From Chrysomallon squamiferum (taxonomy: Eukaryota; Animalia; Mollusca), in assembly GCA_012295275.1 (NCBI GenBank), contig CM022678.1, forward strand, positions 3,038,001 to 3,102,000: a stretch of DNA of 64,000 bases. The letters are read 5' to 3'. Positions 222 through 64,000 of the stretch are shown here, in pieces. Every line of letters starts with the position of its first letter. Position 1 is the first letter of the stretch. The translations under genes were made by a program, and so were the position numbers. The notes under the pieces were generated by a model. It ran no database searches, was not told the DNA's origin, and saw only the letters and a program-made list of their open reading frames with translations.

Positions 222-671
222 GTGGATCTGGAGGTGGTAATGCTGCAGCAGGGGGACAGGCTAAACACACCCATCTTGTTGGACCAGCTCCTGATTATGG
301 TTCTCTCTATCTTCCCAAGGAGTTTGGAGGGAGTGGAGGGGATGGAGGGGGTGCAGGTGCAGAAACAGATGCCCGCTGCACTCTTCATCAAAAGCAGCAA
401 GGGGGGAGAGGTGGGGGAGTCATTCAGATAGAGGCTGAAGAGATTCAGTTGGATGGAGAACTCAGATCCAATGGTGTGGCAGGGTCAGGTCCGAGAGCTG
501 GGGGTGGTGCAGGTGGGAGTGTCCTGCTAATGACAGAGAAGTTGAGGGGGTTGGGAACAGTGTCAGTCAAAGGTGGACCAGTGGCTGAGGGGTCAACGAC
601 ATGCAGAGGTGGTGGTGGTGGTGGTGGAAGGGTGGCTGTGTATTACCTGGCTGAAGGAAACATGTTTAAAG
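222..671 (+). CDS. Exon 1 (in window), Gly-rich repeat
   Basis: ctag|gtgga ... aaag|gtaag, phase 1/1; YGSLYLPKEFGGSGG, GGGAGGSVLL, GGGGRVAVY. Confidence 0.9.
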
Positions 672-937
672 GTAAGTTGTAAATATTACTATTTTTTTTA
701 AAATTCTATTTAGATTCTGAATATCTTTTTAATTAATAATTGTTTTGTTTTAAGAATAACATTTTTGTCAGTGTCTGTAAACATTATCTGATATTATATA
801 CATGTTTGTTTGATTAATTAATTGGTTAATTTTGCTACTTTCTCACTTTTTAGTTATGCAGTTCTATTTATTTATTTGTTTATTTGTTACTTTTTTTTTT
901 CTTCTTTTTTTTTATTATCTATTTATTTGTTTATATA

Positions 938-970
<33 letters not shown>

Positions 971-1211
971 TATATTTACTTACTCATTTCCTTACTTACA
1001 ATTTTTTTATTTTTTTTTATTTTTTTTTATATCTCTACTCCATGGTAAACTAAACTCATTTTCATTCATATACTTCTATATCTGTGACTCTCTATTATTT
1101 AACTAACTAATTAATTAACTTGTTAAATAATATATGGATATAAGTATATATAAACAAATAAAAACTTTAATTCATTTATTCATTCATTCATTATTACACT
1201 TTTTTTTGCAG

Positions 1212-1755
1212 GAAAAGTCTTAAGTCATGGAGGTGGTGCTGCCTATGAATGTGGAGGAGCAGGAACACAAATTTGGCACAATAAAAACCAGACAGGATAT
1301 GACCTCATAGTGGACAACAAACACACCTGTCTTCCCATCAACTCTCGTGTTGACTTTGGCATTCTATCAGATGAGCATCGCGGTGAACACAGCTTTCACA
1401 CATGGCTCTACGACCCTCCCAGTGGCCATAATCACAACTTCCAGGCCGTGACACTGGCTGGCAGTGCTCACGTAGCACTACATCGTCGCAACATTGACGA
1501 CTTTCAGCAGACGATGCATGTTGAAAAAACAGCTGGGGACAAAACTGGAATGTTCCACATTGGTCCAAAGCAGTTGTTTATTGCTGAATTGCCTAAAGAA
1601 AGTCCTGATTTGATGTTCGGGTTGGTGTCATATCCAGGGGGGACAATTCAGATGGGGGCAACCCTGGTTGTTAACAACATAGAGTTAGATCTTCAGGGTA
1701 TCTTGGCAGGAGTCGAGAATCTTATCATTGGTCCAAAGGGCAAGGTCATTCTTAG
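1212..1755 (+). CDS. Exon 2
   Basis: gcag|gaaaa ... cttag|gtttg, phase 1/2; GGAGTQIW, GDKTGMFHIG. Confidence 0.9.
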
Positions 1756-1778
1756 GTTTGTAATTTTATTTTTCTTCT

Positions 1779-1819
<41 letters not shown>

Positions 1820-1859
1820 TTATTATTATTATCATTATTATTATTGCTAGTATTATTAC

Positions 1860-1899
<40 letters not shown>

Positions 1900-2560
1900 G
1901 CTGTTATTATTACTATCATTATCATCATCATCATTTTTATATTTTTGTCTGTTTCTGTGTGTTTGTTTCTTTGTTTGTACTAAAGATTTACAAATCCAAC
2001 TAATTTGTAAACAGAAATTAAAAGATAAAGTTTGAACAGAATGTTAATATAAAAATAATAATCTATCAACACGAAAAAGACTGTATTGCCACTTAGACTA
2101 CATTTTTATTTATCATAAAATTCAAAACAGTAGTCAGTTAGTTAATATTCATATACTGGATATCACAAAGGTTCACAACAAAAAACATTGCCACATAGGT
2201 TATTGTTTTATATGCAATAAAGTAAAAGTTATTGTTTTACATATCACAAAAAACAAAAAACAAAAACATTATTTCTACATAGATTATTGCTTTATATGCA
2301 GTAGAACTAGAAAGCACTGCCATATAAGTTATTATTTTATATATCATAATAGATAAGGAGAAAACATCACCAAATAAGATATTATTTTATAGATCATGAA
2401 AATTAAAAAGAAACTACTGGCACATAAGTTATTATTTTATACATCGTAATATTTAATAAAAACCAATCATTACATGGGTTATTATTTTACTTATAACACA
2501 CAGCTATGAAAATCACTTTTTAAGTTAATTTGATTTATAATTAAATGTTATCATTTTCAG

Positions 2561-2786
2561 GCCACATGGAAATATTTCCACAGATGTGAGCAACGAAATA
2601 CAATTTACAAATATCAAAATTCAAGGTGGTGGCAGCATTATTATCAACAGCAGTGGCAATGGCATGATGCTGAAGGGGTCAGTGTTGCACATAGAGAGTG
2701 GTGGTGTCCTAGAGGTTGATGCTGTTGTTATTGATGTTAAGCAGATAATCTTGGATGACTCTGGCCTCATAAAATCTGATGCAAAG
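2561..2786 (+). CDS. Exon 3
   Basis: ttcag|gcca ... aag|gtaaa, phase 2/0. Confidence 0.88.
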
Positions 2787-3017
2787 GTAAAACACCAGGA
2801 TAATATTTATGTATATCTCTATTTATATCTATATTTATATCATTCTTTCATTCATTCAAGAACTGAAGGCTATTTGAAATGTTTCATCACAACTTTATAA
2901 ATATATTCCTTGGATCCTTTTCATTAAATACCAATCCATTTCATACTTTAGAATCTATTTCATTACCCCATTTTCATTACATACCAGTCCATTCGATACT
3001 ACATTTTTTTTTTGCAG

Positions 3018-3225
3018 GCTGTTCTAGATGGTGTAGGGGTGGGTGAAATAGGAGGTGGGGCATCACATGGGGGTCAAGGTGGTGCACATAGAGACAGTAA
3101 AACAGGTCTCTACTATGGCAACGTTCTGCGCCCAGACCAGCCAGGAAGTTGTAGCAGGACAGATACATACAGAGCTCTGGGTGGAGGTGTGATCACTATC
3201 AAAGCTGTTGAAACACAACTTGATG
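3018..3225 (+). CDS. Exon 4
   Basis: gcag|gct ... gatg|gtcag, phase 0/1; GGASHGGQGG, YGNVLRPDQPGS. Confidence 0.88.
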
Positions 3226-3304
3226 GTCAGTTGATTATTTTCTTTATTCTTTTAGTTAGGAACATATATAAATTCTCCAAACTTTATATATATATATATA
3301 TATA

Positions 3305-4072
3305 CAGTGGTACCTTGACTTACAAGTGCTGCAACTTACGAGTTTTCTGAGTTATGAGCAGTTGTGTGGTGGAGTTTTGCTTTGAGTTGCGAGCCAAAAT
3401 CCAAGTTATGATCGAGCTTCATATACACCGCCACTAGCTGGTGCAATGAACAACACAACATCTGGCCAGCAACCCACGTCTCACTCGTTTACTTTGTGTG
3501 GTTACCTTGCCGCGGAATCATCTCTGTTGTGCTGTGTTCCCATTTTGTGCAGTATTTTGCCAAATTTCTTTTTTCTGACCATGTATAATAAGAAAGTGAG
3601 TCCAAAAGACAGTGCTGAGAAGAAGAATCAGATGATGACCATTGAATTAAAGCATGAAATCATTGAAAAATATGAGGGAGGATGCATGTAGTTGATTTGG
3701 CTACACAGTACTAGCTTAGTATCATGCTGAAGCAGAAGGAGTTGATAAAGGCTGTAACCCCAGCCAAAAGCATTAAAATAATGTCTGATCTCCATGAAAA
3801 ATTCACTTTACAAAACCAGTTTATTTCTTTACATTCTCTTCTATTTTTTTAATTTATTATTTTTTTTTACAATATTTTTCATTTAGAAATGCATTTTTCT
3901 TATTTAAAAACACTATAAAAAATCAAAAAAATCTAAACATTTAGATGGTTTTGGGGGGCTAGAATGGATTAATGGTATTTCAGTTAATTTCAGTTGGGAA
4001 TATTGATATGAGCAGATTTGAGTTTGAGCTTGGTCATGGAATGAATTAAATTCATAAGTCAAGGCACCACTG
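3305..4072 (+). mobile_element. Tigger/pogo-type (Tc1/mariner superfamily) non-autonomous DNA transposon with TIRs and transposase N-terminal remnant
   Basis: TA|CAGTGGTACCTTGACTTA ... TAAGTCAAGGCACCACTG|TA (17/18 inverted match, TA flanks). Internal KKVSPKDSAEKKNQMMTIELKHEIIEKYEGG (about 3590-3685) resembles the Tigger/CENP-B N-terminal HTH and is truncated by a stop. Confidence 0.85.
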
Positions 4073-4078
4073 TATATG

Positions 4079-4112
<34 letters not shown>

Positions 4113-4132
4113 TGTATTGGTGTGTGTATATA

Positions 4133-4168
<36 letters not shown>

Positions 4169-4430
4169 TACAAATTAAATGAATTAAAATATATAAATTC
4201 GGATGAGAAGTTTTTATTTATTTGTTTTTTTGTTTATTATTATTCATTTACTTATTTAGTTACTTATTTACTTATGCATGCATACATACATACATATATA
4301 CATACATACATACATACATACATACATACATACATACATACATACACACATACAGACACACACACCCATACAGACACACACACACCCATACAGACACACA
4401 CAACCCATACACACACCTACATACATAGAT
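4073..4430. repeat. (TATG)n / (CATA)n / (CA)n microsatellites
   Basis: Directly visible tandem repeats. Confidence 0.9.
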
Positions 4431-4983
4431 ATAAATATATAGACTGTATCTATTTATGTTTTTATTTATTTATTTACTAATTGTCTTTTTATTTCTTTAA
4501 TTTTTTTCATATGTTAATATTAATTATTAATTTTTAAAAATCTTTTTATATTTGTTTACAAAGATTGTATAATAATTTAAATTTATCTTAAATTAAATAT
4601 TTTAATTTTTATGTTTGTGCATATGTCTATTTATCTTTCTGTATTATATATGTTTTTGTGTCTTTGTATGTATTTTATTTGTATAGATATGTATATATTT
4701 GTATGAATGGGTGCTTATGTTTATGGTTATATGCTTGTATCTCCATACTTTGCTTATGTGTATGATTTGTGTGTTTTGTTTCTCTGTCTTTAGGTATACA
4801 TATGTGTTTGTCTCTGGATACCTATTTTTGTGGTTTTGTGCATGTATCTGCATATGTGTCAATGTATGTCAGCATGTGTATGTTTATGTGTGTACATTAC
4901 TGTATTTTGTTTCTCTGTAGATATATGTACAAATATTGTTCAGATAAAAAATAAATTATATTCATTTAATTGTGTTAACTCAG

Positions 4984-5106
4984 GTAAAATATCATCAAAC
5001 GGAGCATCAGGTGAGAAGGGTACAGGTGGTGCTAGTGGTGGGAGTATTCTTCTAGAAACAGAGACACTTTATGGCAAAGGTTCTTTGGAAGCCAATGGTG
5101 GTGATG
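4984..5106 (+). CDS. Exon 5
   Basis: tcag|gtaaa ... gatg|gtatg, phase 1/1; GGASGGSILL. Confidence 0.88.
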
Positions 5107-5427
5107 GTATGTACTTTGTTATTTGTTTTGTCTGTTCATTTTAAAATTATTTTTATTTGTAAAGTTTAAGTTGTTTTTATCATTGTGTTTGTGTAATGTG
5201 AGTAAGGTGATGTTGGATGTTAGAGTGCTCAAACCTGGATTTATCATTGTTGAATCATCCCATTTGTAAATAACCCATTCCAACCAGAGAATGTGTACCG
5301 AATGTTGTTTTTCTGTTGCTGATATAGTCCTTGTTGGAAACCTAATTACAGATTGATATGTCTCTGAAAAACTTTATTTTAATGTTGTAATATGCTATTA
5401 GAAGATTATTCCTTTGTCTGTCTATTC

Positions 5428-5660
5428 TATCCATCCATCCATTATTCTATCCATCCATCCACCCACCCATCAATTTATCGACCCACACATCCATTTATCC
5501 TTCCTATCTTCGATTGATTGATCCATCCATCCATTCATCCATTCTTCCACTTTTCCATTCATCCAGCCATCCCTTCATCAACCCAGCGAATTATCTACCA
5601 TATCCTAACCTATCCATCCATTCCACTAGCCCTCCATCCATCCACGCATCCATCCATTCA
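5428..5660. repeat. Degenerate (TCCA)n microsatellite
   Basis: Repeated atcc/tcca units. Confidence 0.8.
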
Positions 5661-5747
5661 TTATCTGTTGCATCCAAAATGATTTTTTTCAAGTATATGT
5701 GTGTGTGTGTGTGTTTGTGTATATATATTTCTTAATTCTGCTTCCAG

Positions 5748-5941
5748 GAACAGCAACTACTGGGGGAGGTGCTGGGGGACGAATTGCAGTGTACTACACA
5801 ACAGGGGAGTTTACTGGAGAACATTCAGCAAAGGGTGGAACATCAAACCTTGCTGTGGGTGGGCCTGGAACAGTTTATGAAGAACAGAGGAACAAACAGA
5901 GAACACTAACAGTGAAGAACATTCCTGGAGTACCACGACAG
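5748..5941 (+). CDS. Exon 6
   Basis: ccag|gaaca ... cag|gtgac, phase 1/0; GGGAGGRIAVY, GGPGTVY. Confidence 0.9.
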
Positions 5942-6170
5942 GTGACTTTTAAACTGATTTGTTCTGTTTTGATATGTTGAGTGTATGTTTATTTAACTAT
6001 TATATACTTAAGTTTATTTAATAAGCATTTGCATACATTTGTTTTTATCTCTTTGCAATTGAATTTATGTATTTATTTTAATTTTCTGTATGATTTTGTA
6101 TTTGTGTATACAAGTTGGATTTGTTATCGTATAAGTATGCATAAAATAGATGTCTTTGTTTGGATGCATA

Positions 6171-6204
<34 letters not shown>

Positions 6205-6325
6205 GGTGTGTTTGTTTGTTTGTGTGTGGTCTGTGTGTGTCTGTATATATATATATATATCTTTGAGTATGTTCATTTTCAAACATTTGATAAACTGATA
6301 TAAATATCTATAATGTTTTACTAAG

Positions 6326-6992
6326 AATCTCATCAATGACTACAATGAGGACATCATAAGAAGACAAGATGGAGGGCGAGCTTGGCTCACTCTTAAAGAC
6401 ATCCAAAACATGACACTTGACAAACTACACCTTGACAGCGGCGCTCACTTGGCCATTGAGCCAGTCAAAAGTCCTCTTCATCCAGTCACACTCTCAGTCC
6501 AAATTCTTACTGGATCCATGGATCTCCATGATAGGTCTAAGATTGGATCACTCCATATTGGTCCATATCAGACAGTGACAATCCAGAGAGTGGATCTGTA
6601 TCTTGCAGTCAACTTTCACGTCTATCAAAAAGGAACATTAAATCTGCCGAGTGAGGTCAAACTTTACAACACCAACAACACCCTCCATGGCCTCTTGGGA
6701 GGAGTACAGCATTTAAAGATGGTTCGGTCAGTTTTAGAGATTGGACCAGAGTCTCAGACAGTGGGTGTGTCCACTCAGGGTCATCTTCTGCTGTCATCCA
6801 TGTCCCTCCTGTCCAGTTCTGAGGTCATCTACAAAGGATTAAATCAGAATCAGCTGTCAGTGTTGATGTTGTATGTGGGGCCATCATGCACAATGTCAGC
6901 AGCCAGTCTCACTGTTGAAGCAACAGAAATTAAAGTAGATGCTGGTGGAAAGATCAGTGCCAGTGAGTCAGGTGAAATTGCTGCTGGTGTTG
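6326..6992 (+). CDS. Exon 7
   Basis: ctaag|aat (AAG acceptor) ... gttg|gtaag, phase 0/1; in frame with ORF 6410. Confidence 0.82.
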
Positions 6993-7562
6993 GTAAGTGT
7001 CACAACAAACAAATACTATTGTTAAAACTTATTTTTATTTAATTTACATTAATTTAAGTCAGAATGTGAAAAAAAAAAAAAGAAAAAAAAGAAAGAAAGT
7101 TTTTAGAACTATCCAGTGATTTAATTAAATTTACCAAGATTAAATTCACAACATTACAGTAATAATAATAATAATAATAATAATAATAGCCCATAATAAT
7201 AATAATAATCATAATAATAATAAAAATAATTGTAGTAATAATAATAGCAATAATTATAATAATAACAATAGCAATAATAACAATAACAATAATAACAAGA
7301 AAAAGAATAACTACAACAATAATATAATAAAAATATAATAATAAAAATAGTAATCAGTTTTTACTTGATCTTGCTTTTTATTTTTCTTTCCATTAAGAAA
7401 TGAATAAGTAACATGCATTCAGGTACCTCTTAAAATATATATGTTCATCTTTCTTTTTTCTTTCTTTCTTTCTTTCTTTCTTTCATTCTTTCTGTTTTTC
7501 TTTAGTTCTTTCTTTCTGTTTTTCTTTCTATCATTCTTTCATTTCTTCTTTTTTTCTTTCAG

Positions 7563-7755
7563 GATATGCTGGAGGCAGTGCTGGGGCCAGTCATGCTGGA
7601 GAAGGTGGAGCTTCCTCTGGATCAACTCGTGGCAAAGTGTACGGAGACTTCCGCAAGCCCACTGAGATGGGTTCTGGTGGCAAACTGACAAAACCAGGAG
7701 GAGTGATACATTTGCAGGCATCCACCTTGACAGTAGCAGGAAGCATTGAAGCCAA
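7563..7755 (+). CDS. Exon 8
   Basis: tcag|gata ... gccaa|gtttg, phase 1/2; GASHAGEGG, YGDFRKPTEMGSGG. Confidence 0.88.
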
Positions 7756-8115
7756 GTTTGTACTAGCATAATTTTGAATAATTAAAAATAATGTGTGCAG
7801 TTATCTAGCTCAGACCCAGATACTTCATCTTAAGTACATTTAAATAATTTATTATAATGATTTATTTATATAATTTTTGTTAATAATAATTATTATTATT
7901 ATAGCAACAACAAAAGTAATAACAGCAACAATAACAATAACAATGATGACAAGAGCAACAAATATTAACATAATAATTGTAATTGAATTTTTATCCAATT
8001 ATGAATTATTTATTTAAATTTTTAAGTTAAAATAATAAAAATAATGATAGAAATAATACAGCTAATTAAATTCATCAAGATTAAATTTACAAAATAAAAA
8101 ACACAACACCATAAC

Positions 8116-8167
<52 letters not shown>

Positions 8168-8414
8168 CAATATTAATAACAGTATAATAATAATAGTAAA
8201 AAAACAATAATACTAATATATAATAGTAGTAGTAGTAGTAATAATAATAATATTGTTATTATTATTATTTCTAAACTGAATTTTACATACTTTAAGAAAA
8301 GCAAAAAGACAAAAAACGTTTTGACTTCATAAAAGTCCTGTGGATCCTGTCATTCACTTTTCATTGATTTTGACATCATAGAAATTATATTTGTTATTTT
8401 GTTTTTATTTTTAG

Positions 8415-8497
8415 TGGGGCAGGATCCACTGACTCATCCAGTGGGGGTGCATCTGGAGGCAGCATCTTGCTACAAGCTGAACATGCTGACATCACAG
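8415..8497 (+). CDS. Exon 9
   Basis: ttag|tggg ... acag|gtaaa, phase 2/1; GGASGGSILL. Confidence 0.87.
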
Positions 8498-8565
8498 GTA
8501 AACATATTCTGTGTTGAAGTTCATAACAATAAATAAATAAATAAAGATTGATATATAGATAGATA

Positions 8566-8566
<1 letters not shown>

Positions 8567-8641
<75 letters not shown>
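8567..8641. repeat. (CA)n microsatellite
   Basis: Perfect AC run. Confidence 0.95.
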
Positions 8642-8645
<4 letters not shown>

Positions 8646-9051
8646 TACATACATATTTATATAAAAAAGCTAATTTCACTTCCATTGGACTTTTTCAAAT
8701 TCTGGTGTCATATTCTTTATATACATGTAACAAATATTTTGGAGATAAAGGGTAAAAAAAAAAAAAAAAGTTGATATTTATATCTCTTAAAATTGCTGTG
8801 TCACAAATTCCAAATTGACAGGGTGCTGGTTATAGAAAATTAATCAGACAAGTATGTTGTTAAATGAAACAAAATGTATCTTGTAGTTTCTGATATACAT
8901 AAAGGTTATTTTATATATAATACATCAGTTTGTATGATTATGCTTAGTATATCATTAAAATAAAAAGTTTTTGACTTGTATTACTGAAAGAATTTGTTTT
9001 ACATGACAACATGAATATTTGAAGATAATATGAAGGTATACACACTTTCAG

Positions 9052-9239
9052 GAGTTATCCATGTCAATGGCGGGTCTGGACACAGTTCTGGTGGGGGTGG
9101 AGGTGGTGTCATTGCTGTTGTATACAATGATGGCAGGGTTGCTGGAGAACTGACAGCATATGGTGGAGATGGCAATGATGCTGGTGCAGCAGGCACTGTG
9201 TTTACTGAAGAGACAAATGACAACTTTTCCTACAGAAAG
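9052..9239 (+). CDS. Exon 10
   Basis: tcag|gagtt ... aag|gtttt, phase 1/0; GGGGGGVIAV, GAAGTVF. Confidence 0.88.
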
Positions 9240-9420
9240 GTTTTGTATTTTTCTCTGTAGATTTTATATATATATATATCCATTACAACTCTTACTCCTG
9301 TAATGAACTTTCCTCACTTGTAGGAAGGTATATCTGACAAAAAGAATAAAATAATGACAGCATTAATTCTCCTCAGAATATATATCTGTATTGAGAATTA
9401 ACTTATAGATAAACTCAGAA

Positions 9421-9463
<43 letters not shown>

Positions 9464-9509
9464 CAAACTAGTCTAAAAAGAGTAAAGCAGTATACAATTC
9501 ATTTTGCAG

Positions 9510-10371
9510 GTGGCTGCTAGAAACAGTCACATCACAGATGCAGAGACGAAGCTGGTAGTTTCAGATCAAGAAAACATGATTGAACTCGAAGAATTCTTCA
9601 TTGGCCAGGACACAAAGTTTGCATTCATATCCCGTACTTCTTCATCACCACTTATTGTCCACATTGCAGTGATGACCGGTGACACCAACAGTCACCTTTC
9701 AGTAACCGATGGCAACAACGTGTACATTGCCACACAGATGCAAGGTCAGCTGAAGTCAATGGATTTGAAGGTCAGCATTTCTGTTGAAACAAAGGGTATT
9801 TTGGAACTTCCGAGAAAGGTTGTGGTCAAAAAGGGAACTGTTCTTGATCTTTGTGGTGGTTTAATGTCAAATACTGCTGATGTAGTTGTAGAAGATGGAG
9901 GAATGTTGAAGGCTGCTTTTCCAGCTTGGACAAAATTGGATGGGTCAGCCAAATCCACCTTGGGAGTCATCAAACTCAACTCATTACAGATAGACACCAA
10001 TGGACTGGAAAAGTCCCAAAACTGTGAAACACAGTCTAAAATCAAGCTGGACTTAAATTTCTTGAACAGAACTATCCCATTTCAACTGGACACTTCTGCT
10101 TTTCTGTTGTCTGAAGGAGTGACCTTGGTTGTACTTGACCCAGATATTCCACCATCACAGAACACCTCCTGCCCTCTTGATTTTACTGAAGATATGTCAC
10201 AGGGTCAGTCTGAAGTGGTTATTTACAAAGGTCAAAAGTGCAGTTTATCTACAGGAACACATACCTTTAAAAGCCTGAGGCTGGAGGGTGGAGCAGAATT
10301 GAAACTACTTGGTGATGAGACTGGATCACAGAAAACAGAGATACATGCAGAAATATTAGAAATAATAACAG
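9510..10371 (+). CDS. Exon 11
   Basis: gcag|gtg ... acag|gttag, phase 0/1. Confidence 0.88.
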
Positions 10372-10599
10372 GTTAGTGCTTGTATCATCATCATCAATAT
10401 GATTGAATTTACTGTTATTATTATTAATATTGCTAATGTTATTATTATTACACATTATTATTGTTGTTATTATTTTATTATTATATTATTATTATATTTA
10501 TTATTATTATTATATTATGTTTATTGCTACTGCATATATTATTACTATTATTATTACACATTATTGTTGTTGTTATTATTATTATTATTATTATTCTAG

Positions 10600-10899
10600 G
10601 AGCAAGAATCACTGGGGTGGGTACTGGATTTTCATCTAATGGTCCTGGAAGTACCAGTGCATCTGACAGTGGGGCATCTCATGGTGGGGCTGGTGTTGGC
10701 AACATAAAACCCCCTTATGGCAGCATCGTCATGCCAATGGAATATGGTAGCAATGGCAAGAATGGGGTTGGTGGAGGGCAGGTCCACATTACAGGGGGTC
10801 AAGCTAATATTGATGGAATCATTGATGTGAGTGGTGGAGGACTAGGGGGTTCCAGTGGTGGAAGTATTCTAATGGAAGTCACTAAATTTACTGGAAGAG
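10600..10899 (+). CDS. Exon 12
   Basis: ctag|gagca ... agag|gtttg, phase 1/1; GASHGGAG, YGSIVMPMEYGS. Confidence 0.88.
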
Positions 10900-11221
10900 G
10901 TTTGTAATAATTATTTAACTATATTATTATTGTTGTTGATGTTGTTGTCCAGTTTACAATTATGCTCAGCCAAACAGTTCCAGTCAAAGGTTTCTTTTTC
11001 TTTGTGTTTTTCTTCTTTTAGGTTTTTTCTTAGATAAAATAAAAATATACTATTTATTTTTTTTTACTTTTGCTATTATTGGTGATGTTCTTCTTATTAT
11101 TAACTATTGTTATTATTATTATTATTATTATTAACTATTATCGTTATTATTATTATTAATGTTTATTATTAATGATATAATTGATGTGATTGTTAAAAAC
11201 ACATTTTATAACATTATTCAG

Positions 11222-11356
11222 GAACTTTGCTGGCTAATGGAGGATCTGGGGGAGGTTCTGGGGGTCGCATTGCTCTAAACATCAGCAGTACCTACCAGTT
11301 TAGTGGAGGTCTGTTCGTGAAAGGGACACAACTGGAAAACAAAACAGCAACTGCAG
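11222..11356 (+). CDS. Exon 13
   Basis: tcag|gaact ... gcag|gtgaa, phase 1/1; GGGSGGRIAL. Confidence 0.88.
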
Positions 11357-11838
11357 GTGAATTTGTCTACTATGTGTTTTAGTGTATGTTGTGTGTGTAG
11401 CATGTATATTTTTCTGACTGTATTTGTGTAGTGTATATAGTGTTTGAATATTTGTTGTGTTTGTATTTCTTTGTATTCATGTGGTGTATTTATTGTATAT
11501 TGTGTATGTGTATGTTGCATATGTGTATTTGTGTATGTTTGTAATTCTATGAATATATCGTGTGTTGTATGTGTGTGTATTAGTATGTTGTATGTGTTTT
11601 TGTGTGTATGTGTAGTGTGTATTTCTGTGTACATACTTAATTTTCTTTTATAGTTTACATCAATTCACAAATCCTCATTTTTAACATTCACATGATGTGT
11701 ATATATCTTTGTCTGTCTGAATGTATGTATATGTATGCATTCTTCTTAAATATCTGTTTTTCATGACATAAGACTATTTAATAACACTTAAAGTATTTAA
11801 TGGTTTCTGATAAAATAAACTTCTATATTTTCATTCAG

Positions 11839-50567: not shown

Positions 50568-50605
<38 letters not shown>

Positions 50606-50612
50606 TATTCAG

Positions 50613-51780: not shown

Positions 51781-51814
<34 letters not shown>

Positions 51815-52717: not shown

Positions 52718-52969
52718 GAACATGTGATGGTGTAAATTTCTTCCCCCCACGCTGTGTTGGGTGTGTTCTGTCTATGGGGAAGGGCTGTGAAAAACCATGT
52801 GTCAATGGGACAGAGGAGCCCCCATTTAGTGAAAACTGTGTGTGCCATGCCTGTTTCTCCGACCCTGGATGTCAAACTGAATGTTCAAACCATGGGTCAT
52901 GTGACAATGGAACCTGCAGGTGTGAGGATGGATACATGGGAGATAACTGTGACACACTTGACTGCCCAG
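52718..52969 (+). CDS. Exon 53, EGF-like repeats
   Basis: tcag|gaaca ... ccag|gtatg, phase 1/1. Confidence 0.9.
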
Positions 52970-53115
52970 GTATGTATTTTTAGCACGTTTTAAAAATAAT
53001 CCCAAAATGTTTTGTTGATTTGTTTTATTTTATTATTTAGTAATTCATTTGTTTGTTTGACTGTTTATTTTTAAAAATCTTTCTCACTTAAATAATCTTT
53101 TACATTTTGGTATAG

Positions 53116-53250
53116 GTGAGCCTAACTGTAACAATCATGGTATCTGTACTAGATCAGGAAACCAGTCAATCTGTGTGTGTGACCCAGGGTTCGAGGGAGA
53201 AGAGTGCAGGTCTATGGTCTGTCCCGGAACACCTTCATGCAGTGGAAATG
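53116..53250 (+). CDS. Exon 54, EGF-like repeat
   Basis: atag|gtgag ... aatg|gtaag, phase 1/1. Confidence 0.88.
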
Positions 53251-53561
53251 GTAAGCATTCCTCCGTTCTGATTTTTGTTCAACATTTTAAAAATATCTCT
53301 TTTGTTATTTTTTTAAATTATTTTTTGTAAGTTGACTTATTTCTTGTTTGGAGGAGTTTGTTTTTAAATATATGTCTATTTATATATGGTGTGTGTATGC
53401 GAGAGTGAGTGTGTGTGTGTGCTGTGTGTGTGTGTGTGTGTGTGTTTGCACATGTGTTTATGTATGTTCCTCTGTGGGTATGATTTTAACATAATAATTT
53501 ATAAAATATATTGATTTGAGTTTCTGTTTTTGGTGTCACATGTTGGAGTTTTCACATTCGT

Positions 53562-53605
<44 letters not shown>

Positions 53606-53958
53606 TCATCCACAAACACTCACACAAACACGTACATACACAGCAAATCCAAACAAAAATAAACACACCACATATTTGTAACAACAACTGACACATGTGT
53701 GCTTACATTCAGATTTTATATTTTATATTTTCTAGCTACGAAAGACATGCACGCACATACATACAGATGTAATTTAATATTTATATCTCTAGCTGTGATA
53801 TACACACATACATATATACATACACAGAAATATAAATGTTATTTTTAATATTTCTAGTTGTGACAGACACACATACATACAAATATAAATTTTATATTTC
53901 TATGACAGAAACACACACATATATACATGTATATACATTTTATATTTTGCATTTCTAG

Positions 53959-54147
53959 GTATGTGTACTCTATTACCAAACACAACAACACCAGTGTGCG
54001 TTTGTAATCATGGATTTGGAGGTGTTGCATGCGACCACTGTCTACCTCACTTCACAGGACAACAATGTGACCACTGCAAGCCTGGCTACATCGGCTACAA
54101 CAACAGCTGCAGTGTTCTTTGTCTTCATGGACATTCAGTACCTAAAG
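53959..54147 (+). CDS. Exon 55, EGF/laminin-EGF-like
   Basis: ctag|gtatg ... aaag|gtgct, phase 1/1; CDHCLPHFTGQQCDHCKPGY. Confidence 0.87.
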
Positions 54148-54487
54148 GTGCTTACAGACATAAATAATTTGTTTAGATGTTATTCTCACTCATTAATAAA
54201 ATTTGGCCTCTAGTTTTATAAATGTGTATGTTAGTATGTTAACCTTTATTTATTTATTTATTTATTATTATTATTATTATTAGTAGTAGTAGTAGTATTG
54301 TTATTATTATTGTGGTACTTATTATTTTATCTTCAGAATCATTATTATTTTTACAACTATTACTACTACTGCTACTACTACTACTACTACTACTACCACT
54401 ACTACTATTGCTATTATTATTATTGTTATCATCATTATCATCACCATTATTATTATTATTTTTGTTATTATTACGCTTATGAATATT

Positions 54488-54531
<44 letters not shown>

Positions 54532-54556
54532 TATATATCATATATTGTACATTCAG

Positions 54557-54670
54557 GAAGTGACAACTGTGTGTGTTATGATGACCAGAAGGATGGACAC
54601 TGGTCAGGAGACAGTTGTGACACATGTCAACTTGGATGGGCTCCACCAAGCTGTAACAAATGTGCTAAAG
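54557..54670 (+). CDS. Exon 56, laminin-EGF-like
   Basis: tcag|gaagt ... aaag|gtttg, phase 1/1; GHWSGDSCDTCQLGW. Confidence 0.87.
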
Positions 54671-54746
54671 GTTTGTACATAACACTAAATGTTTATTTTA
54701 ATTTTATTTATTTATTTATTTATTTATTTATTGATTTCTTGCTTCA

Positions 54747-54818
<72 letters not shown>

Positions 54819-55209
54819 TACTACTACTATCATCATCATTATATTATTATTATTATTATTATTTTTGTTGTGCATCTGTCTGTCGTTTCTGTACATTTGT
54901 CTGTTTTCTAAAAACATACTGTTACTAACACTGGACTCTCAACCCATCTTTCTTCTTTCTTTCATGTAAGCTCCTCTCTCATTCTGTTTCTGTTTCTTGA
55001 ATTATTTATTTATTTTATTTTATGTATCTATATGCATATTTATTTCTCATTCTATTTCTTATTTATTTCAATAAACATTGACAACAAAATTCTTGATCTA
55101 ACACATTGTTATTTGTATGTTTGTTTGTTTATTTATTTAATTTTTATATATTTTTATTTCTTTATTTCTTTATTTCTTTATTGTTATATATTTATATATA
55201 TTTATTTAG

Positions 55210-55492
55210 ATTTTGTTGGACTATCCTGTAACATTCCCTGTATAACAGACCATGGAATTTACAAAGATAAATTTGATGGAGACAGTGGGACAGAAAATGT
55301 TATTCCACAATTCCAGTGTGTCTCCAACAGCTCAGGAGAATACACTGCTTGGTTTGGCTACAACAACCTCAACAGTCACAATGTCTACATTCCAGAAGGG
55401 CAGTCCAACAAACTGACTGGGGTGGGGTTCACAGCAGTCCCTCTCCCTACCAAGTTCCGCCCTGGTTTTGTGAAGTATGCTTTTGCTGTCAG
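55210..55492 (+). CDS. Exon 57, non-EGF beta domain
   Basis: ttag|atttt ... tcag|gtagg, phase 1/2; PQFQCV...YTAWFGYNNLN...PTKFRPG. Confidence 0.87.
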
Positions 55493-55509
55493 GTAGGGAA
55501 TATCAGCTT

Positions 55510-55640
55510 ATTATTGCCTTACTTTTCCTATCCCATCCAGGGCTTCACTTCAGAGTAAATAAAGCATGGATTTTTTATCTGTGGGTTGGCATGTACGAAA
55601 AAAGATATTTTGCTGCTAATTGACATGAGAAGTCCACACA
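55510..55640 (+). mobile_element. SINE core fragment (MESC/Meta-like)
   Basis: tctgtgggttggcatgtacgaaaaaagatattttgctgctaattga resembles the recalled mollusc SINE core TGTGGGATGGTGCATATAAAAGATCCCTTGCTGCTAATCGA. Confidence 0.45.
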
Positions 55641-55739
55641 CAATGTTTGTAGTTGATTATCATTTATCTATTATTAGTATAACACTCATGGACATACACA
55701 CATATACATCCACCATCATGTACAAAAAACCCAAACACA

Positions 55740-55775
<36 letters not shown>

Positions 55776-56244
55776 TATTTTTATACACACACACACACAC
55801 ACATACATACATATATTCAAACAAACACGCACACACACAAAAACACACACACACATATATAAATATACACTTTCATACACATGCAAAAATATATATTTAA
55901 TACCCAAACAAGATATATTTTAAACTGATATTATTTATTTTACATTGTCTATTTAAGCAATTGCTTTCTTAAGTTTCTCAAGAAAAAAAAGTTGTTTTAA
56001 ATTTGTTACTATTATATTATTACTATTACTATTGCCACTATTATTATTACTATCATTCTTCTTCTTCATCTTCTTATCCTTCTTCTTCGTCTTATTATTA
56101 TCATTATTATTATAACTTTTTTGTTTTGTTGTTGTTGTTGTTGTTGTTACTACCACTACTACTACTACTACTACTACTGCTATTATTATTATTAATATTA
56201 ATATTGTTATTGTTATTATTATTGAACTATTATTATTATTACAG

Positions 56245-56371
56245 TTCTTTGACATCAAGCAGCTCCATCTACTGGTATTTTGCTTACATGAAGTCAAACA
56301 GAGAATTTACCACAGGAATTAACATGACAGACATAAATGAGAATCAGTTCTGTACTTACCTCCCTGTCCTT
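56245..56371 (+). CDS. Exon 58
   Basis: acag|ttct ... ctt|gtgag, phase 2/0; bridges the phases of exons 57 and 59. Confidence 0.8.
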
Positions 56372-56751: not shown

Positions 56752-59700
56752 GATGACAGAGATACTAGAGAAGAAACAGCAATGTGTTACTGTTTGTCTG
56801 GTTACTGGGGAAATGCATGTGAACATGAATGCCCAGGAGGTTCTAGTAATCCTTGTTATGGAAACGGGCTTTGTGATCCTGCCACAGGTCACTGCTCCTG
56901 CTATGCCAATGCTCAAGCAGAAACAAACTGCAGCACTTGTCAGCCAGGTTGGTTTGGTTCTGACTGTGCTGTTGCTCACAGCGATGCTGAAGTAGATCTA
57001 CATTCCAGACATTACGGCCGTGCATATAGCAGTGGTTACTTCATGACATTTGATGGCTCAACATACAGCTACCACAACACTGGTGAACATGTAGTGGTAG
57101 ACACTACAACAACACCAGGGACAGTGTTGAAAATTCACTGCATGTTGGTGATGTCTTCTGCCAACGAGGCTGGAGTTGTTATTCAAGCTGTTGCCATAGT
57201 GATTGAAACAAACACCATTGAGATATACAGCAAGGAAAACCATTTCATGATAATTTACAATGGGAAAGAAGTAAACATTCTTGGATCAGAGCTTGCTGTA
57301 GCTGATGGAGTGAAGTGTGAAATGATAACAGCGAGACAGGTGAGAGTTTTCATACACAGTGATGTGGTGGTTGATGTCTTCATTCAAACTGTCAGTCTTG
57401 ACCTGCAAGTCAAACTGGCCTACAGCATCTGCAACAAAACAACAGGACTTCTCTCATCATGCAGTGGATCTCCGTTTGATGACTTCAGACTCAAATCTGG
57501 AACAGTCCTGACCTCCACATCAGCTCCATACCTAAACCAAGTCTCCATCCACAGAGAGTTTGGCTTGTCATTCTACGTTAAACCAGAAAATACAGTTTTC
57601 TTGTACCAGCAGAGCATGGTTGATTCTCAAGGATACAGCCTCAAGTTTAACAAGACAAATGCAGTGAGTGAGCCACTGAGGATCTTCACCAGTTACGATG
57701 CATCAGTTGAGATTAAATTCAAAACCTCAGTCGAATCAGATACTTGCCAAACAGTTTGGTCCTTCAGGAAAAATGATGTCATTTCACTGTTGATCTGCAA
57801 TCGTCACATCGCAGTCTACTTTGAAGGAAATCTGTACAATTCACATTCATTGTCAGTGACTGCTGATGTCTGGCATCATCTGGCTGTTGTCTGGTCTGAT
57901 ACATCTCGAGTGATCAGCCTGTTTCTACTCAGAGACTCAGTTCACATGGCCTCAGACACTGTAACAATATCAACAAAAGGACATCCATTCATAAACTCTG
58001 GAACATTAATGATTGGGCAGTGGAATCCTGTTTTCACTCATCCTGAGAAGCTATATTGGAGTTTCTATGGAATGATAGATGATGTCAGAGTTTGGCAGGC
58101 AGCAATAACAGTGGTACAGATCAGGAAGTATTACAAGGAGGTGATAATCAGAGAGGCAAGTTTGGCTTGTCACTGGAGACTTGACGAAGGTTCAGGAATC
58201 ACTGCCACTGATGCTGTTGTTGGTCTCAGTTTGTCCATGATGAAAGATCCTTGGTGGAAACCAGAGTGGGTTAGGTCAGAGTTCAGATACACCTACCCAT
58301 CTTCTCACATAAACATTTATCATCATCAAGCTGATCGAAATTCAGCTGCTGAATTCTGTTCTTCACTTATATATTCCTCTCTAATAAATGCCTCTTGTAA
58401 TTCTCTGGGTCCTGCTTTCATCACTGCAATCTATCACCAGTGTGTGTTCAACTCTCTTTCATTCCACAACAACCAGTACTCTCTCGAAGTTATCCTTGCT
58501 TTAGCTGATTCATGTCAGTTTTACAACCAGCTGGGAGCCTGGCCTGCCCAGTCATTTTGTAACCTCTTCCCACAAAGATATTTCCCTCTGTGGACAGGAA
58601 CACACTGCTACACAAAATGTGTGTTTGGTATTCCTAACAACAAGAATTCACTTTGTCAGTGTCTATCAGGATTCTTTGGTTCATCATGCAGTGAAAAGTG
58701 TCCCTTTAGTGAAGGAAAACCTTGCAACTCTGGCACCTGTAAATCAGATGGAACTTGCATTTGTCCCAGAAACCGTATCCATGACAACTGTGATGCCTGT
58801 GCTGAAGGGTGGACTGGACGTGACTGCAGTCAGGTAGTGACTACTCTTAGTGAAAACCTGGATAACTATCTCTGTTTAGTCTATGGTTACTCTCACTTCA
58901 CAATGTTTGATGGACAAGTGTACAGTCTGCAGAGATCTGGAGAGTTTCTGCTGTTTGAAGAAGGAAATATGACAATCAGAATCAGACAAGTTCCTTGTCC
59001 AGGAAACAAAGCCATTTGTATTGAACAGCTGTGGATATCTGACAGCCAGGGAAATGTATCTATAACAATGGCACAGAAACAATCATCTTTTCTTGTCTGG
59101 TACAATGGAAATAAAGTTCTATTTGATACATCATACAAAGCCACAGATGAGATAAACTTGAAAAAAGATTCTGACAAGAAAATGGACATTGAGTTAAAAG
59201 ATGCAGTGACTGTCACCTTGTCATTGCACTACACCAGCATAAAAATAACTCTAATAGCTAAGACAACTTCTTGTGGACAAGCTAGAGGACTATGTGGAAA
59301 CTGTGATCACAACCTTGACAATGACTTCATCACATTTAAAGGAAATCTGGCTTTTGCTGATATAACTGCAGAACTCATTAATCAAGATGTGGCAGACTAT
59401 TTCTCTCTTGACATGTCATCTTCATCTGGATTCATTTACTCAGTAGATAACCAATCAGAGCCCAGACATCTGACAGGAGATGGATTCACTCTGGATCTAC
59501 AAGCAGCCAGCTGCTACTCAGAGAAAATAAATTCAATATCAAGTAATGACGATTTAACCTTCAGTGTGAAGATCAATCCAGATCAGGGTGATGGCACTCT
59601 CCTAATATATGAAGCTGCAACACAAATCAAAATCTCTCTCTTGGATGCGAAGATCAGACTAACAATTGGGGACACAACATTCAGCTCTTCTCTAGTTGTC

Positions 59701-62700
59701 ATCATGAAGCAGTGGCAGCATCTTTCTCTGGTTGTAGAACGGAAGACTTCCACAGTTTTCTTATACCACATTACTTCTCAAGGAATTATAACTTCAGAGT
59801 CTTTTGTCTTCAGTGGAACACTATATCTAGCCACAGGTTGTGTTAGAATAGGAGGAGAGAACACAGTAGATGTTATCTTTTATCATGGACTTGTTGATGA
59901 AGTCAGAGTTTGGAACAGAATGTTGAATATTTATGAGATAACACAGTCAGCAAGAAGAACCATAGATAACAAATTTACAGGAATCCAAGCCATTTGGTCA
60001 TTTTCAGAAGGTTCAGGTTACACTTCAAAAGACATTATCGGAGGTATTAAGATGTTCTTGCCTTTAAACGGTTTCAGGTGGACATACAGCAACCTAATGT
60101 GGACACTGCATGATCAGATCTATCCACCCCTGTATCGCTGGCCAACCACAAACATCAAATCATGTGAACGACTTTTAACTGATACTTCATTGACTGATCC
60201 ATGTAGTGGTCTGGGAAATGGCTTTCAGAATTACTTCTACATGGCCTGTGTTTCTGACTCAGTTTATGGAAATTCTGATGAAGGCTCTGCCATTATCACA
60301 ACATTCATTAAATACTGTCAGAAAATTCTGGGACCTGAAAAACCTCCAACCTCAGTGATATGTAAAAATAAAAATGATTCTCTGTACTCAGAGCTGTGTC
60401 TAGGTGACTGTAAATTTGGAAAGACAGATGAAGGTGGACACTGCGTGTGTAAGACTGGATACTGGGGTTACGACTGCAGTTCAGTTTGTCCTGGAGGTGC
60501 AACTAATCCTTGTTATGGAAATGGTTTCTGCAGACCTGACTCAGGTATTTGTGACTGTCAGCCATCTTGGAATTCTTCTGATTCCTGTAAAACCTGCAAT
60601 GAAGAATGGACTGGTCCTGATTGTAAAGAATTCAAACAAAACCTGTTCCAGAAATAGAATTCAAAAATGAAACATGTACAATGTTCGGACATGGAAAGGT
60701 GATTTCATTTTCACAGTCAACAATGAACATGATAAAGCCAGGTGAGTACTACATCTTGAAGAGTTCTAGAAAACAAATTAGACTTGGCATCAAGACTGTA
60801 CCTTGTGACAACCAAGCTCTCTGTATTTCTGCATTTGGAATAGAATCAAAGACAGAATCAGTTGTAATTCGTGCTGCTTATAGCAGATCAAAACTTGGCA
60901 CTGTCTGGATCAATGGCCAGGAAGTCAGAGATCTGACTCAATCACTACAACACTTGACCTTCCAGTGGAGTTCATCTTATGAGTATTTAGTCAGTAGTAG
61001 TAATGTAAACCTTCACATCAAGATTAGAGTACATGGACAACATCTCACATTTAATCTGATGTCAGACCCAGCACAGCTTTGTGATGATTCAACAAACTGT
61101 GGCTTGTGTTCCTACAATGACAGTTCAGAAATCTCAACCTCACTTCCATACAATGCATGGCTGATACCAAAGACAGAAAGTCTCTTCTCAGTTCTTTATG
61201 TCAACAGTGTGTACCGTGAGAAGGACCTGATAACTGCAGCAGGACACTCACTCTTCTTAAACAACTCACCCATTTCTTCTGATGTGCTGCTTGACACCAT
61301 TAAAGAAAATTCAGACTTCACCATTGGTATAATGATAAATCCAGACTCTGCCACTGGTGTTGTTTTGTCGTACAGCTACAAGACTCTGTTTGGAATCTAC
61401 CTCGACATGACACTGAAAATAAGAGCTGGAGTTACTGATTTTGATACTCAACTCAACCCACCTGTTAAAAAATGGACTCAACTGTTTTTGGTGTACACCA
61501 AAGCTCTTCATCAACTTGACATACATATCAGTGACAAGAACAACCAAATTAGATCACATACAGTAACTTTACCCAGAGAATTTGTGTTCAGATCAAAAGG
61601 AATTCTTACCATTGGCGGTTGGTCAGTACCTACTGGGAAACATTTTGATCTGGTGTCGATTGCAGGTTACACAGGTGAAGTGGATGAACTCAAGGTCTGG
61701 CACCAAGCTTTCAGTTACGTTGAAATCCACAACCACATCACTTCAAGAGTTACACTCACTGAAGCAACTTTGTTTAACCACTGGCAGTTCAACGAGGGAG
61801 AAGGAACAGTAATAATGGACATCAAACACAGATACTTCTTTGATTATTATACATATGTCTGGACCATCAACAGACCACAGTGGAGGCTTTCGTATGCACC
61901 AGTAATACTAAAGACCATCATCTCCACTCATAGGTTTAAAGAGTCATCACTTCTGCTAGAAGCAGAAACAAAATGCAAGAGTCTCATATTCCAAACCCAT
62001 TTCCAGAATCAATGTGGAAGTTTGTATACAAATTATGCTGAGCTCTTCTATTCATCATGTCTTGATGACATTGCTGCTTCATCATTAATAGAATCATCAG
62101 CCATCAGTATCATGTCCTTTTCTGATCTGTGTGAAATGACTTATCATCTGGACAAATGGCCTGCCCAGTTTCTGTGTCAAGAGATTGGTCAGTTTTCACC
62201 TTGGACTGGAGTTGACTGTAAAGAGAAGTGTCTCTTCCCAGATTACATGTATGGATCTGGATCAGGTGTGTGTCCATGTAGACAAGGATTCTATGGTGCA
62301 TCATGTTCAGAAATGTGTCCAGGAGGAGTAGCTAATACTTGTAATGGACATGGAATATGTGACCCTTCATCAGGTACATGTATCTGTGACAAGAACTGGG
62401 TCCAGACCAACAATGACAAATCCTGCACAAAGTGTGCTCCAGGTCATCACGGAAAAGACTGCAGCATCGCAATCCAGTCATCCACTTCAACAAAAGGCAT
62501 TCACTTTTGCTCCTTCATAGCAAATGGTCATCTCAGTACTCTCGATGGAGCCATGGTGGACTTGGATTTGGAAGGAATATTCACATTTTACCAGCAAACT
62601 AACATTGGTATATATACTGAAATTAATGTCAGGCCTTGCAAGAAGTTCAAAACTTGCATCTACTCAGCTGCTATTAAAATTTCGGACACCATTGTAGTGG

Positions 62701-64000
62701 CTGCAGCTCTGACTCCAACCACTTTATCAATAAATAATGAAACAATAAACATTGTAGACAAACATAAAATAAACAAAGACTTCACCATGGTTCGACTGGA
62801 CAGGTTTACATATGAACTACGAGGAAAAGCTGGATTCACTCTAAGGTTGCTAATAGAGGAAGGATACCTCAGCCTTCATCTCTCCTCACCAGCAAACCTC
62901 TGTTACAACACTAAAGGATTCTGTGGAGTTTGCCGTCCTTCAGTACAGACTTCATGTTCAGATGGAGATGTTGCTTGTTTGATCAGTTCAGTAGGTCTGT
63001 CATCCTTTGTCCTGCAGCATGCATCACAAACTCTTGATTCTGTTCAGGTTACTGAGTACTACTCCTCACTTGCAGTCCACTTACAGTCCAGCTTGTTTGC
63101 TTCAGTGTCCAACTCACAGGCAAACATCTCAGGCTATGCAGTTCACATAGACAAAGGATGGATGATAACTTCACCCATTCCGGACGACTTACTGAGCAGT
63201 TCTCATCTATGTTTTGAAGTGATGATAAAACTCACTGGAAATGATGGAGAATCCTATAATGGAATTATTTTGTCCTATGCTTTAAAGAAGACCTTTGGTG
63301 TTGCGGTGATAAATGGACATTTCACAGTTTACTTTGGAGAGTCTGTTTTCACTACTGGTCTCTCAGTTGAAGTAAATGTTTGGTCACACATTGCTCTGAT
63401 CTACAGCAGATCCATTGGCAGCCTCATCTTCCATTACATCCACAGTGACAATATCCACAACTATGAGATCATCAACATTGGAATAGGAGCTTTCCCTGGA
63501 GGAGGATCGTTAGCTCTAGGAACATGGCAACTGTCTCCTTCCCTATCAGTCCAGCCAACAGTAAAAACATTCACTGGAATCATTCAAAAGGTTTTCATCT
63601 GGCCAAGACCACTGTCACCATTAGCAATCCTTGCTCACTGGAAATACATTGATACAGTCGTTGCAGACAGTCATCTGATTCTAGGCTGGACCTTCAGCTC
63701 AGGATATGGAAACCAAATACAGGACATCACACAAGGATTTTCTATGGTTTTGTCAAAGTCAGGGACTCAGTGGGTGGTTTCTGATATGAGTATTAGTGTA
63801 AAGGTGACCACAGTCCTTAACAATCTTTACTTGTTGAAAAAGTCTCAAACTTTCTGTGATAAAGTGTTCAATGACAAGACACTCAAGATACCATGTGGAT
63901 CTCTGACAACAGCTGAAAATGTCTACACATCTTCATGTATCCTTGACATTTACAGTTCAGGCAACATTCAGGCTGCTATGGATACAGTGGTAACCTATTC
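56752..64000 (+). CDS. Exon 59 (>7.2 kb, runs off window): 4x [VWD - LamG/pentraxin - C8-like - EGF]; apparent frameshift near 60636
   Basis: tcag|gat, phase 0. ORF 56734-60657, then a shifted frame that I translated by hand and found open to 64000. VWD motifs FMTFDG/FTMFDG/GLCGNC; LamG motifs WHHLAVVW, GMIDDVRVW, WRLDEGSG. Confidence 0.9.

What the first reader, a model, noticed from the sequence alone, without database searches (positions are those of the whole stretch)
222..64000. A single giant (>11,000 aa) modular extracellular protein with an unusual architecture
Seen: 59 phase-consistent exons, about 33.9 kb of CDS, with neither start nor stop in the window. The order is 18 Gly-rich macro-repeats, roughly 50 EGF-like repeats, one small beta domain, then at least 4 VWD-LamG-C8-EGF units. 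Known: EGF arrays and VWD/C8 occur in tenascins, mucins and zonadhesin, and LamG/pentraxin folds bind glycans or ligands. I do not recognise this combination as a characterised protein. Inference: a very long secreted or membrane-tethered filament involved in mucus, adhesion, matrix or microbe recognition. Automated pipelines would likely split it into several 'tenascin-like' or uncharacterised models.
Basis: partly seen in the sequence, partly recalled or inferred. Interest (0 to 1): 0.9.

Follow-up and report, generated by a model that had tools for sequence, protein, structure and literature searches.

The report
Giant ancient cell-surface filament protein
This window is the middle of one real, spliced and expressed animal gene for a protein of more than 11,000 amino acids, with matching pieces in corals, clams and a single-celled relative of animals; it is likely a membrane-anchored filament whose outer part is predicted to fold like bacterial adhesion rods and would grip sugars on mucus, cells or microbes.

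Summary
Confirmed, with one correction. An independent model gives 59 GT-AG exons, 33,855 nt and 11,286 aa, with no start, in-frame stop or membrane segment. Four one-base frameshifts lie inside large exons. RNA contigs lack the extra base at both sites tested, so these are probably assembly errors.

Order: 17 full plus one partial ~400-aa Gly-rich repeat, ~53 EGF-like modules, a small unnamed domain, then 4 VWD-LamG-C8-like-EGF units. An Acropora model has the same order in one chain. Repeats match position by position in the clam Mactra (12 of 12) and in the choanoflagellate Salpingoeca, so the array predates animals. A homologue continues to 9 units, a transmembrane helix and a tail, implying at least 15,000 aa.

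Two Gly repeats are predicted (pLDDT 91.6) as a beta-helix closest to bacterial adhesins (HMW1, Z 16.8), with no curated family or PDB sequence match. It is not a mucin, tenascin or teneurin. Function is inferred only: a long surface filament that binds glycans.

The parts
222..64000 (+). Gene, open at both ends: 59 exons, 33,855 nt, 11,286 aa with X at four frameshifts
   Evidence: RNA for exons 20-21 and for exon 59
224..37845 (+). Gly-rich repeat array: one partial (224-617) and 17 full repeats of about 370-450 aa, 18-42% identical to each other; predicted beta-helix with ordered Gly-rich segments (exons 1-33)
   Evidence: structure
38550..55240 (+). About 53 EGF-like modules, including 11 four-module super-repeats of about 128 aa (exons 34-57)
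55310..56355 (+). Small unnamed domain (exons 57-58), conserved in the coral protein; no Pfam or NCBIfam match
56770..58630 (+). EGF-VWD-LamG/pentraxin-C8-like unit 1
58636..60421 (+). Unit 2
60424..62244 (+). Unit 3 (contains the frameshift at about 60635)
62256..64000 (+). Unit 4, cut by the window end
13780..13795 (+). One-base frameshift inside exon 14; not tested with RNA
19616..19616 (+). Extra base absent from RNA contigs of 2 of 2 covering RNA runs
21475..21475 (+). Extra base in an A run, absent from RNA contigs of 3 of 3 RNA runs
60625..60640 (+). One-base frameshift inside exon 59; not tested with RNA
21783..22449 (+). Intron 20, spliced out in RNA contigs of 3 of 3 RNA runs

Best explanation
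The window encodes the middle 11,286 residues of one expressed gene, whose product is likely a single-pass (type I) membrane protein of at least 15,000 residues that would stand out from the cell as a stiff filament and is predicted to bind glycans through its outer beta-helix repeats. Shown: spliced open chain, domain order, expression of two stretches, and conservation of order and of individual repeats in coral, clam and choanoflagellate. Predicted: each Gly repeat is a right-handed beta-helix like bacterial filamentous adhesins, with ordered Gly-rich loops that are likely a polyglycine-II bundle. Inferred from homologues: 9 membrane-proximal units, a transmembrane helix with a Cys and basic cluster, a variable low-complexity tail, and probably a signal peptide and F5/8C (discoidin) domain far upstream. 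Inferred mechanism: the EGF array is a disulfide-stiffened spacer, the VWD-LamG units pack neighbouring molecules into a coat, and the outer rod gives many weak sugar-binding sites that hold mucus, other cells or bacteria a few hundred nanometres from the surface.
For: Model and phases. RNA: 0.96-0.99 of sampled words of 56800-63990 in 4 RNA runs of one study; one spliced intron, two frameshifts absent. Same order in one chain: Acropora P0353, 40% identity over 4,836 columns; JGI protein P0027, Gly repeats then LamG and EGFs. Position-specific repeat orthology. C-terminus: P0464 is colinear with model 8261-11286 and continues to 9 units and a helix at 6328; 16 of 66 homologues with two or more units end in such a helix, the other 50 do not and look like fragments. 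Fold: pLDDT 91.6, pTM 0.83; best matches HMW1 Z 16.8 (rmsd 4.3, 269 aligned), Vag8 13.1, pertactin 12.9, Awp1 12.4. LamG part closest to pentraxins. In 11 of 11 EGF super-repeats the two short modules have 5+5 (9) or 4+4 (2) cysteines, never 5+4, as expected if the odd pair bonds to each other.
Against: No binding, localisation or tissue data. A beta-helix fold is shared by adhesins and polysaccharide lyases; the best Foldseek rows were PL6 alginate lyases, at E 0.001 and TM about 0.12. The anchor and N-terminus lie outside the window and come from unnamed homologues; the link to the signal-peptide/F5/8C proteins rests on equal contig lengths. Only 1 of 58 introns was seen spliced in RNA, plus one loose end, all from one study. 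No single protein record spans Gly repeats to membrane helix.
Confidence: 0.5

Rival explanations
1. Same single membrane protein, but a purely structural tether or spacer (cell-cell, cell-matrix or between microvilli/cilia) that acts by self-association, with no role in binding foreign glycans.
For: VWD-C8 modules polymerise in mucins and VWF (established; structural matches). Each repeat keeps its own identity across phyla, which suits fixed geometry rather than an arms race with microbes.
Against: Pentraxin-like LamG, F5/8C in the probable N-terminal part and adhesin-like beta-helices are all folds that commonly bind glycans.
Confidence: 0.25
2. The beta-helix repeats are a tethered array of polysaccharide-cleaving or -modifying enzymes.
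For: Weak best Foldseek rows are PL6 alginate lyases and GH55; lyases and tailspikes fill lower VIA ranks. A few polar positions are conserved across 88 repeats (Arg 85%, Asn 82%, Asp 83%, His 60-69%).
Against: Conservation is dominated by Gly (26 columns at 80% or more) and by Pro, Ser and Tyr. Top VIA matches are non-catalytic adhesins. No enzyme family matched in Pfam or NCBIfam.
Confidence: 0.1
3. Two or more adjacent genes, or short isoforms, that only look like one chain.
For: Junctions 33-34 and 58-59 were not seen in RNA; database records are all partial.
Against: No stop or hydrophobic segment in the model; strong in-phase splice sites at both junctions; the Acropora model crosses both, although it is itself a prediction.
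Confidence: 0.08
4. A pseudogene carrying four real frameshifts.
For: Four frame changes in the assembly; two untested; the RNA is probably from other individuals.
Against: Both tested indels are absent from RNA; no in-frame stop in 11,286 codons; ordinary identity to orthologues on both sides of each break.
Confidence: 0.03

Closest known systems
Two-partner-secretion and autotransporter adhesins (HMW1 2odl, FHA 1rwr, pertactin, Vag8, EtpA) and Candida Awp1
   Same: Predicted right-handed parallel beta-helix; best structural matches, Z 10.9-16.8.
   Different: 8-12% identity; no sequence match in the PDB; here a ~400-aa unit with Gly-rich insertions repeated at least 18 times in a spliced animal gene.
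Gel-forming mucins, VWF, zonadhesin, FCGBP (D assemblies)
   Same: Tandem VWD domains followed by a Cys-bearing helical module.
   Different: A LamG/pentraxin domain sits between VWD and the C8-like module; no Pfam TIL or C8 match; no Pro/Thr/Ser domain (at most 34 per 100 residues) and no GDPH site.
Teneurins and tenascins
   Same: Arrays of short non-calcium EGF modules matching EGF_TEN, EGF_Teneurin and EGF_2; some modules have 5 cysteines.
   Different: About 53 modules in a four-unit pattern; no FN3, fibrinogen, NHL or YD domain in the parts scanned; homologues are type I, whereas teneurins are type II (recalled).
Fibrocystin / PKHD1L1 (recalled: type I, G8 and beta-helix domains, surface coat)
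   Same: Large single-pass animal protein with beta-helix parts; weak G8 matches occur (E 0.014 in exon 11; above the Pfam cut-off in P0004 and P0050).
   Different: No TIG array seen; several times longer; EGF and VWD-LamG arrays instead.
Gly-rich polyproline-II bundle domains (phage S16 gp38, ALK/LTK)
   Same: Several short Gly-rich segments that are ordered but neither helix nor strand; such segments form bundles in gp38 and ALK (PMC13243192, passages read).
   Different: Neither is among the 50 listed VIA matches of the two-repeat model; the bundle was not verified on coordinates.
Prokaryotic giant surface proteins with AgmC-N-like Gly-rich modules
   Same: P0106 (7-8 modules) and a Dojkabacteria protein match the window's repeat profile along its length.
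   Different: Only P0106 scores on NF047640, and below cut-off (128.9 against 275); 4 of 4 window repeat stretches do not; their repeats form separate clades.

Membership tests
Gel-forming mucin / zonadhesin | VWD domains | tested here: met
   PF00094 in 4 of 4 units, 3 above cut-off
Gel-forming mucin / zonadhesin | VWD-C8-TIL order without insertion | tested here: not met
   LamG lies between VWD and the helical module; no TIL or C8 Pfam hit at E<=1
Gel-forming mucin / zonadhesin | Pro/Thr/Ser-rich O-glycan domain | tested here: not met
   Maximum 34 P+T+S per 100 residues within the window; parts outside the window unseen
Tenascin | EGF array followed by FN3 repeats and a fibrinogen domain | tested here: not met
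   The EGF array is followed by VWD-LamG units
Teneurin | Type II topology, 8 EGFs, NHL and YD shell | tested here: not met
   About 53 EGFs; homologues have a C-terminal helix
Fibrocystin / PKHD1L1 | G8 domains with TIG repeats and PbH1 beta-helix | tested here: inconclusive
   Only a sub-threshold G8 match in one window exon and no TIG in the stretches scanned; not every exon was scanned
TPS / autotransporter adhesin | Right-handed beta-helix | tested here: met
   Predicted model and structural search
TPS / autotransporter adhesin | TPS or autotransporter sequence signature and bacterial export | tested here: not met
   No Pfam, NCBIfam or PDB sequence match; spliced animal gene
Polyglycine-II bundle domain (gp38, ALK) | Packed PPII helices of Gly-rich segments | tested here: inconclusive
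   Ordered coil at pLDDT above 90; coordinates not available; not in the listed VIA rows
Beta-helix polysaccharide lyase/hydrolase | Catalytic residues clustered in the groove | not testable with these tools
   Conserved polar positions listed but could not be placed on the model
Type I membrane protein | Signal peptide and one C-terminal membrane helix | tested here: inconclusive
   Both lie outside the window; helix seen in 16 of 66 multi-unit homologues; signal-like N-termini seen by eye in P0016, P0041, P0054

The most novel reading that the evidence does not exclude
A 15,000-21,000-residue single-pass protein, among the largest cell-surface proteins known, already assembled in the common ancestor of choanoflagellates and animals. 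It carries a bacterial-adhesin-like beta-helix/polyglycine rod on an EGF stalk and forms the glycan-binding filament coat by which collar cells and ciliated marine epithelia trap bacteria or organise mucus. It has gone unnoticed because gene predictors split it.
Probability: 0.3. Interest if true: 0.9.

Novelty: new variant of a known kind. Interest (0 to 1): 0.75.

Why it matters
It ties fragments that databases hold as separate hypothetical or 'tenascin' genes into one conserved giant surface protein older than animals. It defines a large unnamed beta-helix repeat shared with prokaryotic surface proteins. It offers a testable candidate for filamentous surface coats of choanoflagellates, corals and molluscs, and so for how early animals captured or managed bacteria.

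Tried and rejected
No whole genome is held, so the gene could not be extended.

Bridging the four frame changes with 46-65-nt mini-introns scored lower than frameshifts, and RNA showed one-base differences at the two tested.

No Pfam, NCBIfam or PDB sequence match for the Gly repeats or the small domain. ESM Atlas gave only unnamed clusters for the repeat, plus one G8 cluster (0.90, 41% of members), and weak bacterial leads under 0.9 for the small domain. Foldseek gave nothing at E<=0.001 for the repeat. gp38 and ALK are not among the 50 VIA rows, which excludes nothing.

Locus searches gave no contig with the whole order: none with P0027; two metagenome loci with Gly repeats only; one 2.3-kb low-coverage contig in a bacterial MAG at 55-56% identity, probably eukaryotic carry-over, not taken as gene transfer.

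Gaps in RNA contig cover within exon 20 are not evidence of a break.

No vertebrate, insect or nematode name appeared among listed hits, but most hits are unnamed and two of the three searches stop at 5,000 aa, so loss is not shown.

Paper searches found no description of the family: (listings only). Supplements and subscription papers were not searched and may list these accessions.
Full report
Observation. The window is AT-rich animal DNA (GC 34.8%) with long + strand frames between simple-repeat-rich introns. A dynamic-programming gene model trained on the window's long frames gave 58 exons and 4 frame changes. Comparison with a coral protein showed a missing 127-nt exon at 56245-56371 and three shifted acceptors. 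The final model has 59 exons, 33,855 nt, 11,286 aa, no stop, and 58 in-phase GT-AG introns. It has no hydrophobic segment (first model). Phase agreement of freely chosen splice sites was 52 of 57, a partly circular test.

Frameshifts. Four one-base frame changes lie inside exons 14, 20 (two) and 59. Contigs from RNA runs of one study lack one base at 19616 (2 of 2 covering runs) and at 21475 (3 of 3), splice intron 20 (3 of 3), and carry a loose end that reads as the start of exon 22. Four RNA runs hold 0.96-0.99 of the sampled words of 56800-63990. The gene is therefore expressed at both places examined and the tested indels are probably assembly errors. Only 3.4 kb could be laid, so two indels and 57 introns have no direct RNA join.

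Anatomy. Residues 1-6967 are one partial and 17 full Gly-rich repeats, 18-42% identical to each other. About 53 EGF-like modules follow, mostly as 11 four-module super-repeats of about 128 aa. In each, the two short modules have 5+5 cysteines (9 cases) or 4+4 (2 cases), which suggests a bond between modules rather than free thiols (inference). No calcium-binding EGF pattern was found. A roughly 110-aa unnamed domain spans exons 57-58. Four ~610-aa units follow, each EGF, VWD, LamG and a Cys-bearing helical module. The LamG part is closest to pentraxins. A model of unit 1 is of low confidence (pLDDT 59) but matches VWF, MUC2, MUC5B and LamG/pentraxin structures. Pfam C8 is not matched.

One gene. 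Acropora digitifera XP_015752845.1 (5,431 aa) has about 8 Gly repeats, the EGF array, the small domain and a VWD-LamG unit in one predicted chain: 40% identical over 4,836 columns, and 992 of 2,320 aligned residues from the last Gly repeat to the end of unit 1. An unnamed JGI protein also joins Gly repeats to EGFs, with a LamG between them. P0464 (6,778 aa) is colinear with model residues 8261-11286 and goes on to 9 units, a membrane helix and a 429-aa tail. Of 66 homologues with two or more units, 16 end in a helix followed by basic residues, most with cysteines; one more hydrophobic end was dropped as low-complexity read-through; the others end earlier. Adding P0464's remainder gives 15,003 aa from the window start. 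A second set of proteins (Saccoglossus, Ptychodera, Potamilus, Patiria) has further repeats, and in the first three an F5/8C domain near an N-terminus that looks like a signal peptide by eye. Their repeats form separate clades. One such record shares its contig length (502,817) with records for repeats 14-16 and for VWD units. This suggests, but does not prove, that they are the upstream 4,500-5,800 residues of the same gene; paralogy is not excluded.

Age. Each of 12 of 12 Mactra repeats best matches the same-numbered window repeat; 6 of 7 Acropora repeats and 5 of 6 repeats of S. rosetta PTSG_13036 do so in order. In a FastTree of 88 repeats (369 columns; 11 source proteins plus the window; repeats under 331 aa left out), window repeats 12, 16 and 17 each group with their coral and choanoflagellate counterparts (support 0.99, 0.99, 1.00). 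The array was thus built before animals and choanoflagellates split. Octocoral repeats match less cleanly. Prokaryotic proteins carry related modules, but no direction of transfer was tested. Closest named relatives are bivalves (48-51% per repeat for Dreissena), so the source is probably a mollusc (inference).

Fold. Two repeats folded with a 55-sequence alignment give pLDDT 91.6 and pTM 0.83, almost all short strands. The closest solved folds are beta-helical adhesins (HMW1 Z 16.8, rmsd 4.3, 269 aligned; Vag8, pertactin, Awp1, tapirin, EtpA); Foldseek found nothing at E<=0.001. The Gly-rich stretch of about 60 residues in each repeat is ordered but neither helix nor strand, as expected of polyglycine-II helices. 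Such bundles are described for gp38 and ALK (PMC13243192 and bioRxiv 10.1101/2023.11.25.568672; passages only; the passages shown do not mention this family). This was not verified on coordinates.

Mechanism. Most likely a type I membrane filament: disordered tail, nine D-like units near the membrane, EGF stalk, outer beta-helix rod and perhaps a discoidin head, in all a few hundred nanometres long (rough inference from typical domain sizes). Glycan binding is inferred from fold classes only (0.5). A purely structural tether (0.25), an enzyme array (0.1), separate genes (0.08) and a pseudogene (0.03) are the rivals.

Known or new. It fails the defining features of mucins, zonadhesin, tenascins and teneurins, and has no curated family for over 60% of its length. 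Eight paper searches found no description (listings only; supplements and subscription journals not covered). Earlier notes of this scan describe the Gly-repeat part and the VWD-LamG part separately in other genomes. They are unchecked AI notes and are not independent support; this window shows both parts in one reading chain. Verdict: real, uncharacterised and ancient; the parts are known fold types in a new arrangement; function untested. Interest 0.75.

Noticed in passing
window 3560-3690: Short broken frame in intron 4 that resembles the start of a Tigger/pogo transposase (recalled); no Pfam match.
   Followed up: partly
window 22600-22800: Intronic stretch with raised depth (up to 209) and loose ends in run X5, suggesting a dispersed repeat.
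   Followed up: no
window 22360-22501: About 70 nt around the acceptor of exon 21 are duplicated in tandem at 89% identity, leaving a second acceptor-like site in the intron.
   Followed up: no
window introns: 102 tandem arrays cover 5,821 nt, 5,782 of them in introns; exon GC 44.8%, intron GC 23.5%.
   Followed up: yes
window 56752: Several homologous reading frames from host DNA in metagenomes begin at the position of the start of exon 59, suggesting a conserved intron before the VWD array.
   Followed up: no
L003:187-2337: A 2.3-kb contig filed in a Polyangiaceae MAG is 55% identical to repeats 12-14; probably eukaryotic contamination.
   Followed up: partly
P0054 and P0006: S. rosetta PTSG_13037 and PTSG_11389 are 82% identical over 1,138 residues, so the gene is at least partly duplicated there.
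   Followed up: no
P0219: A record named Candidatus Thiodiazotropha on a 3-kb contig is 53% identical to repeats 12-13; likely clam host DNA in a symbiont bin.
   Followed up: no
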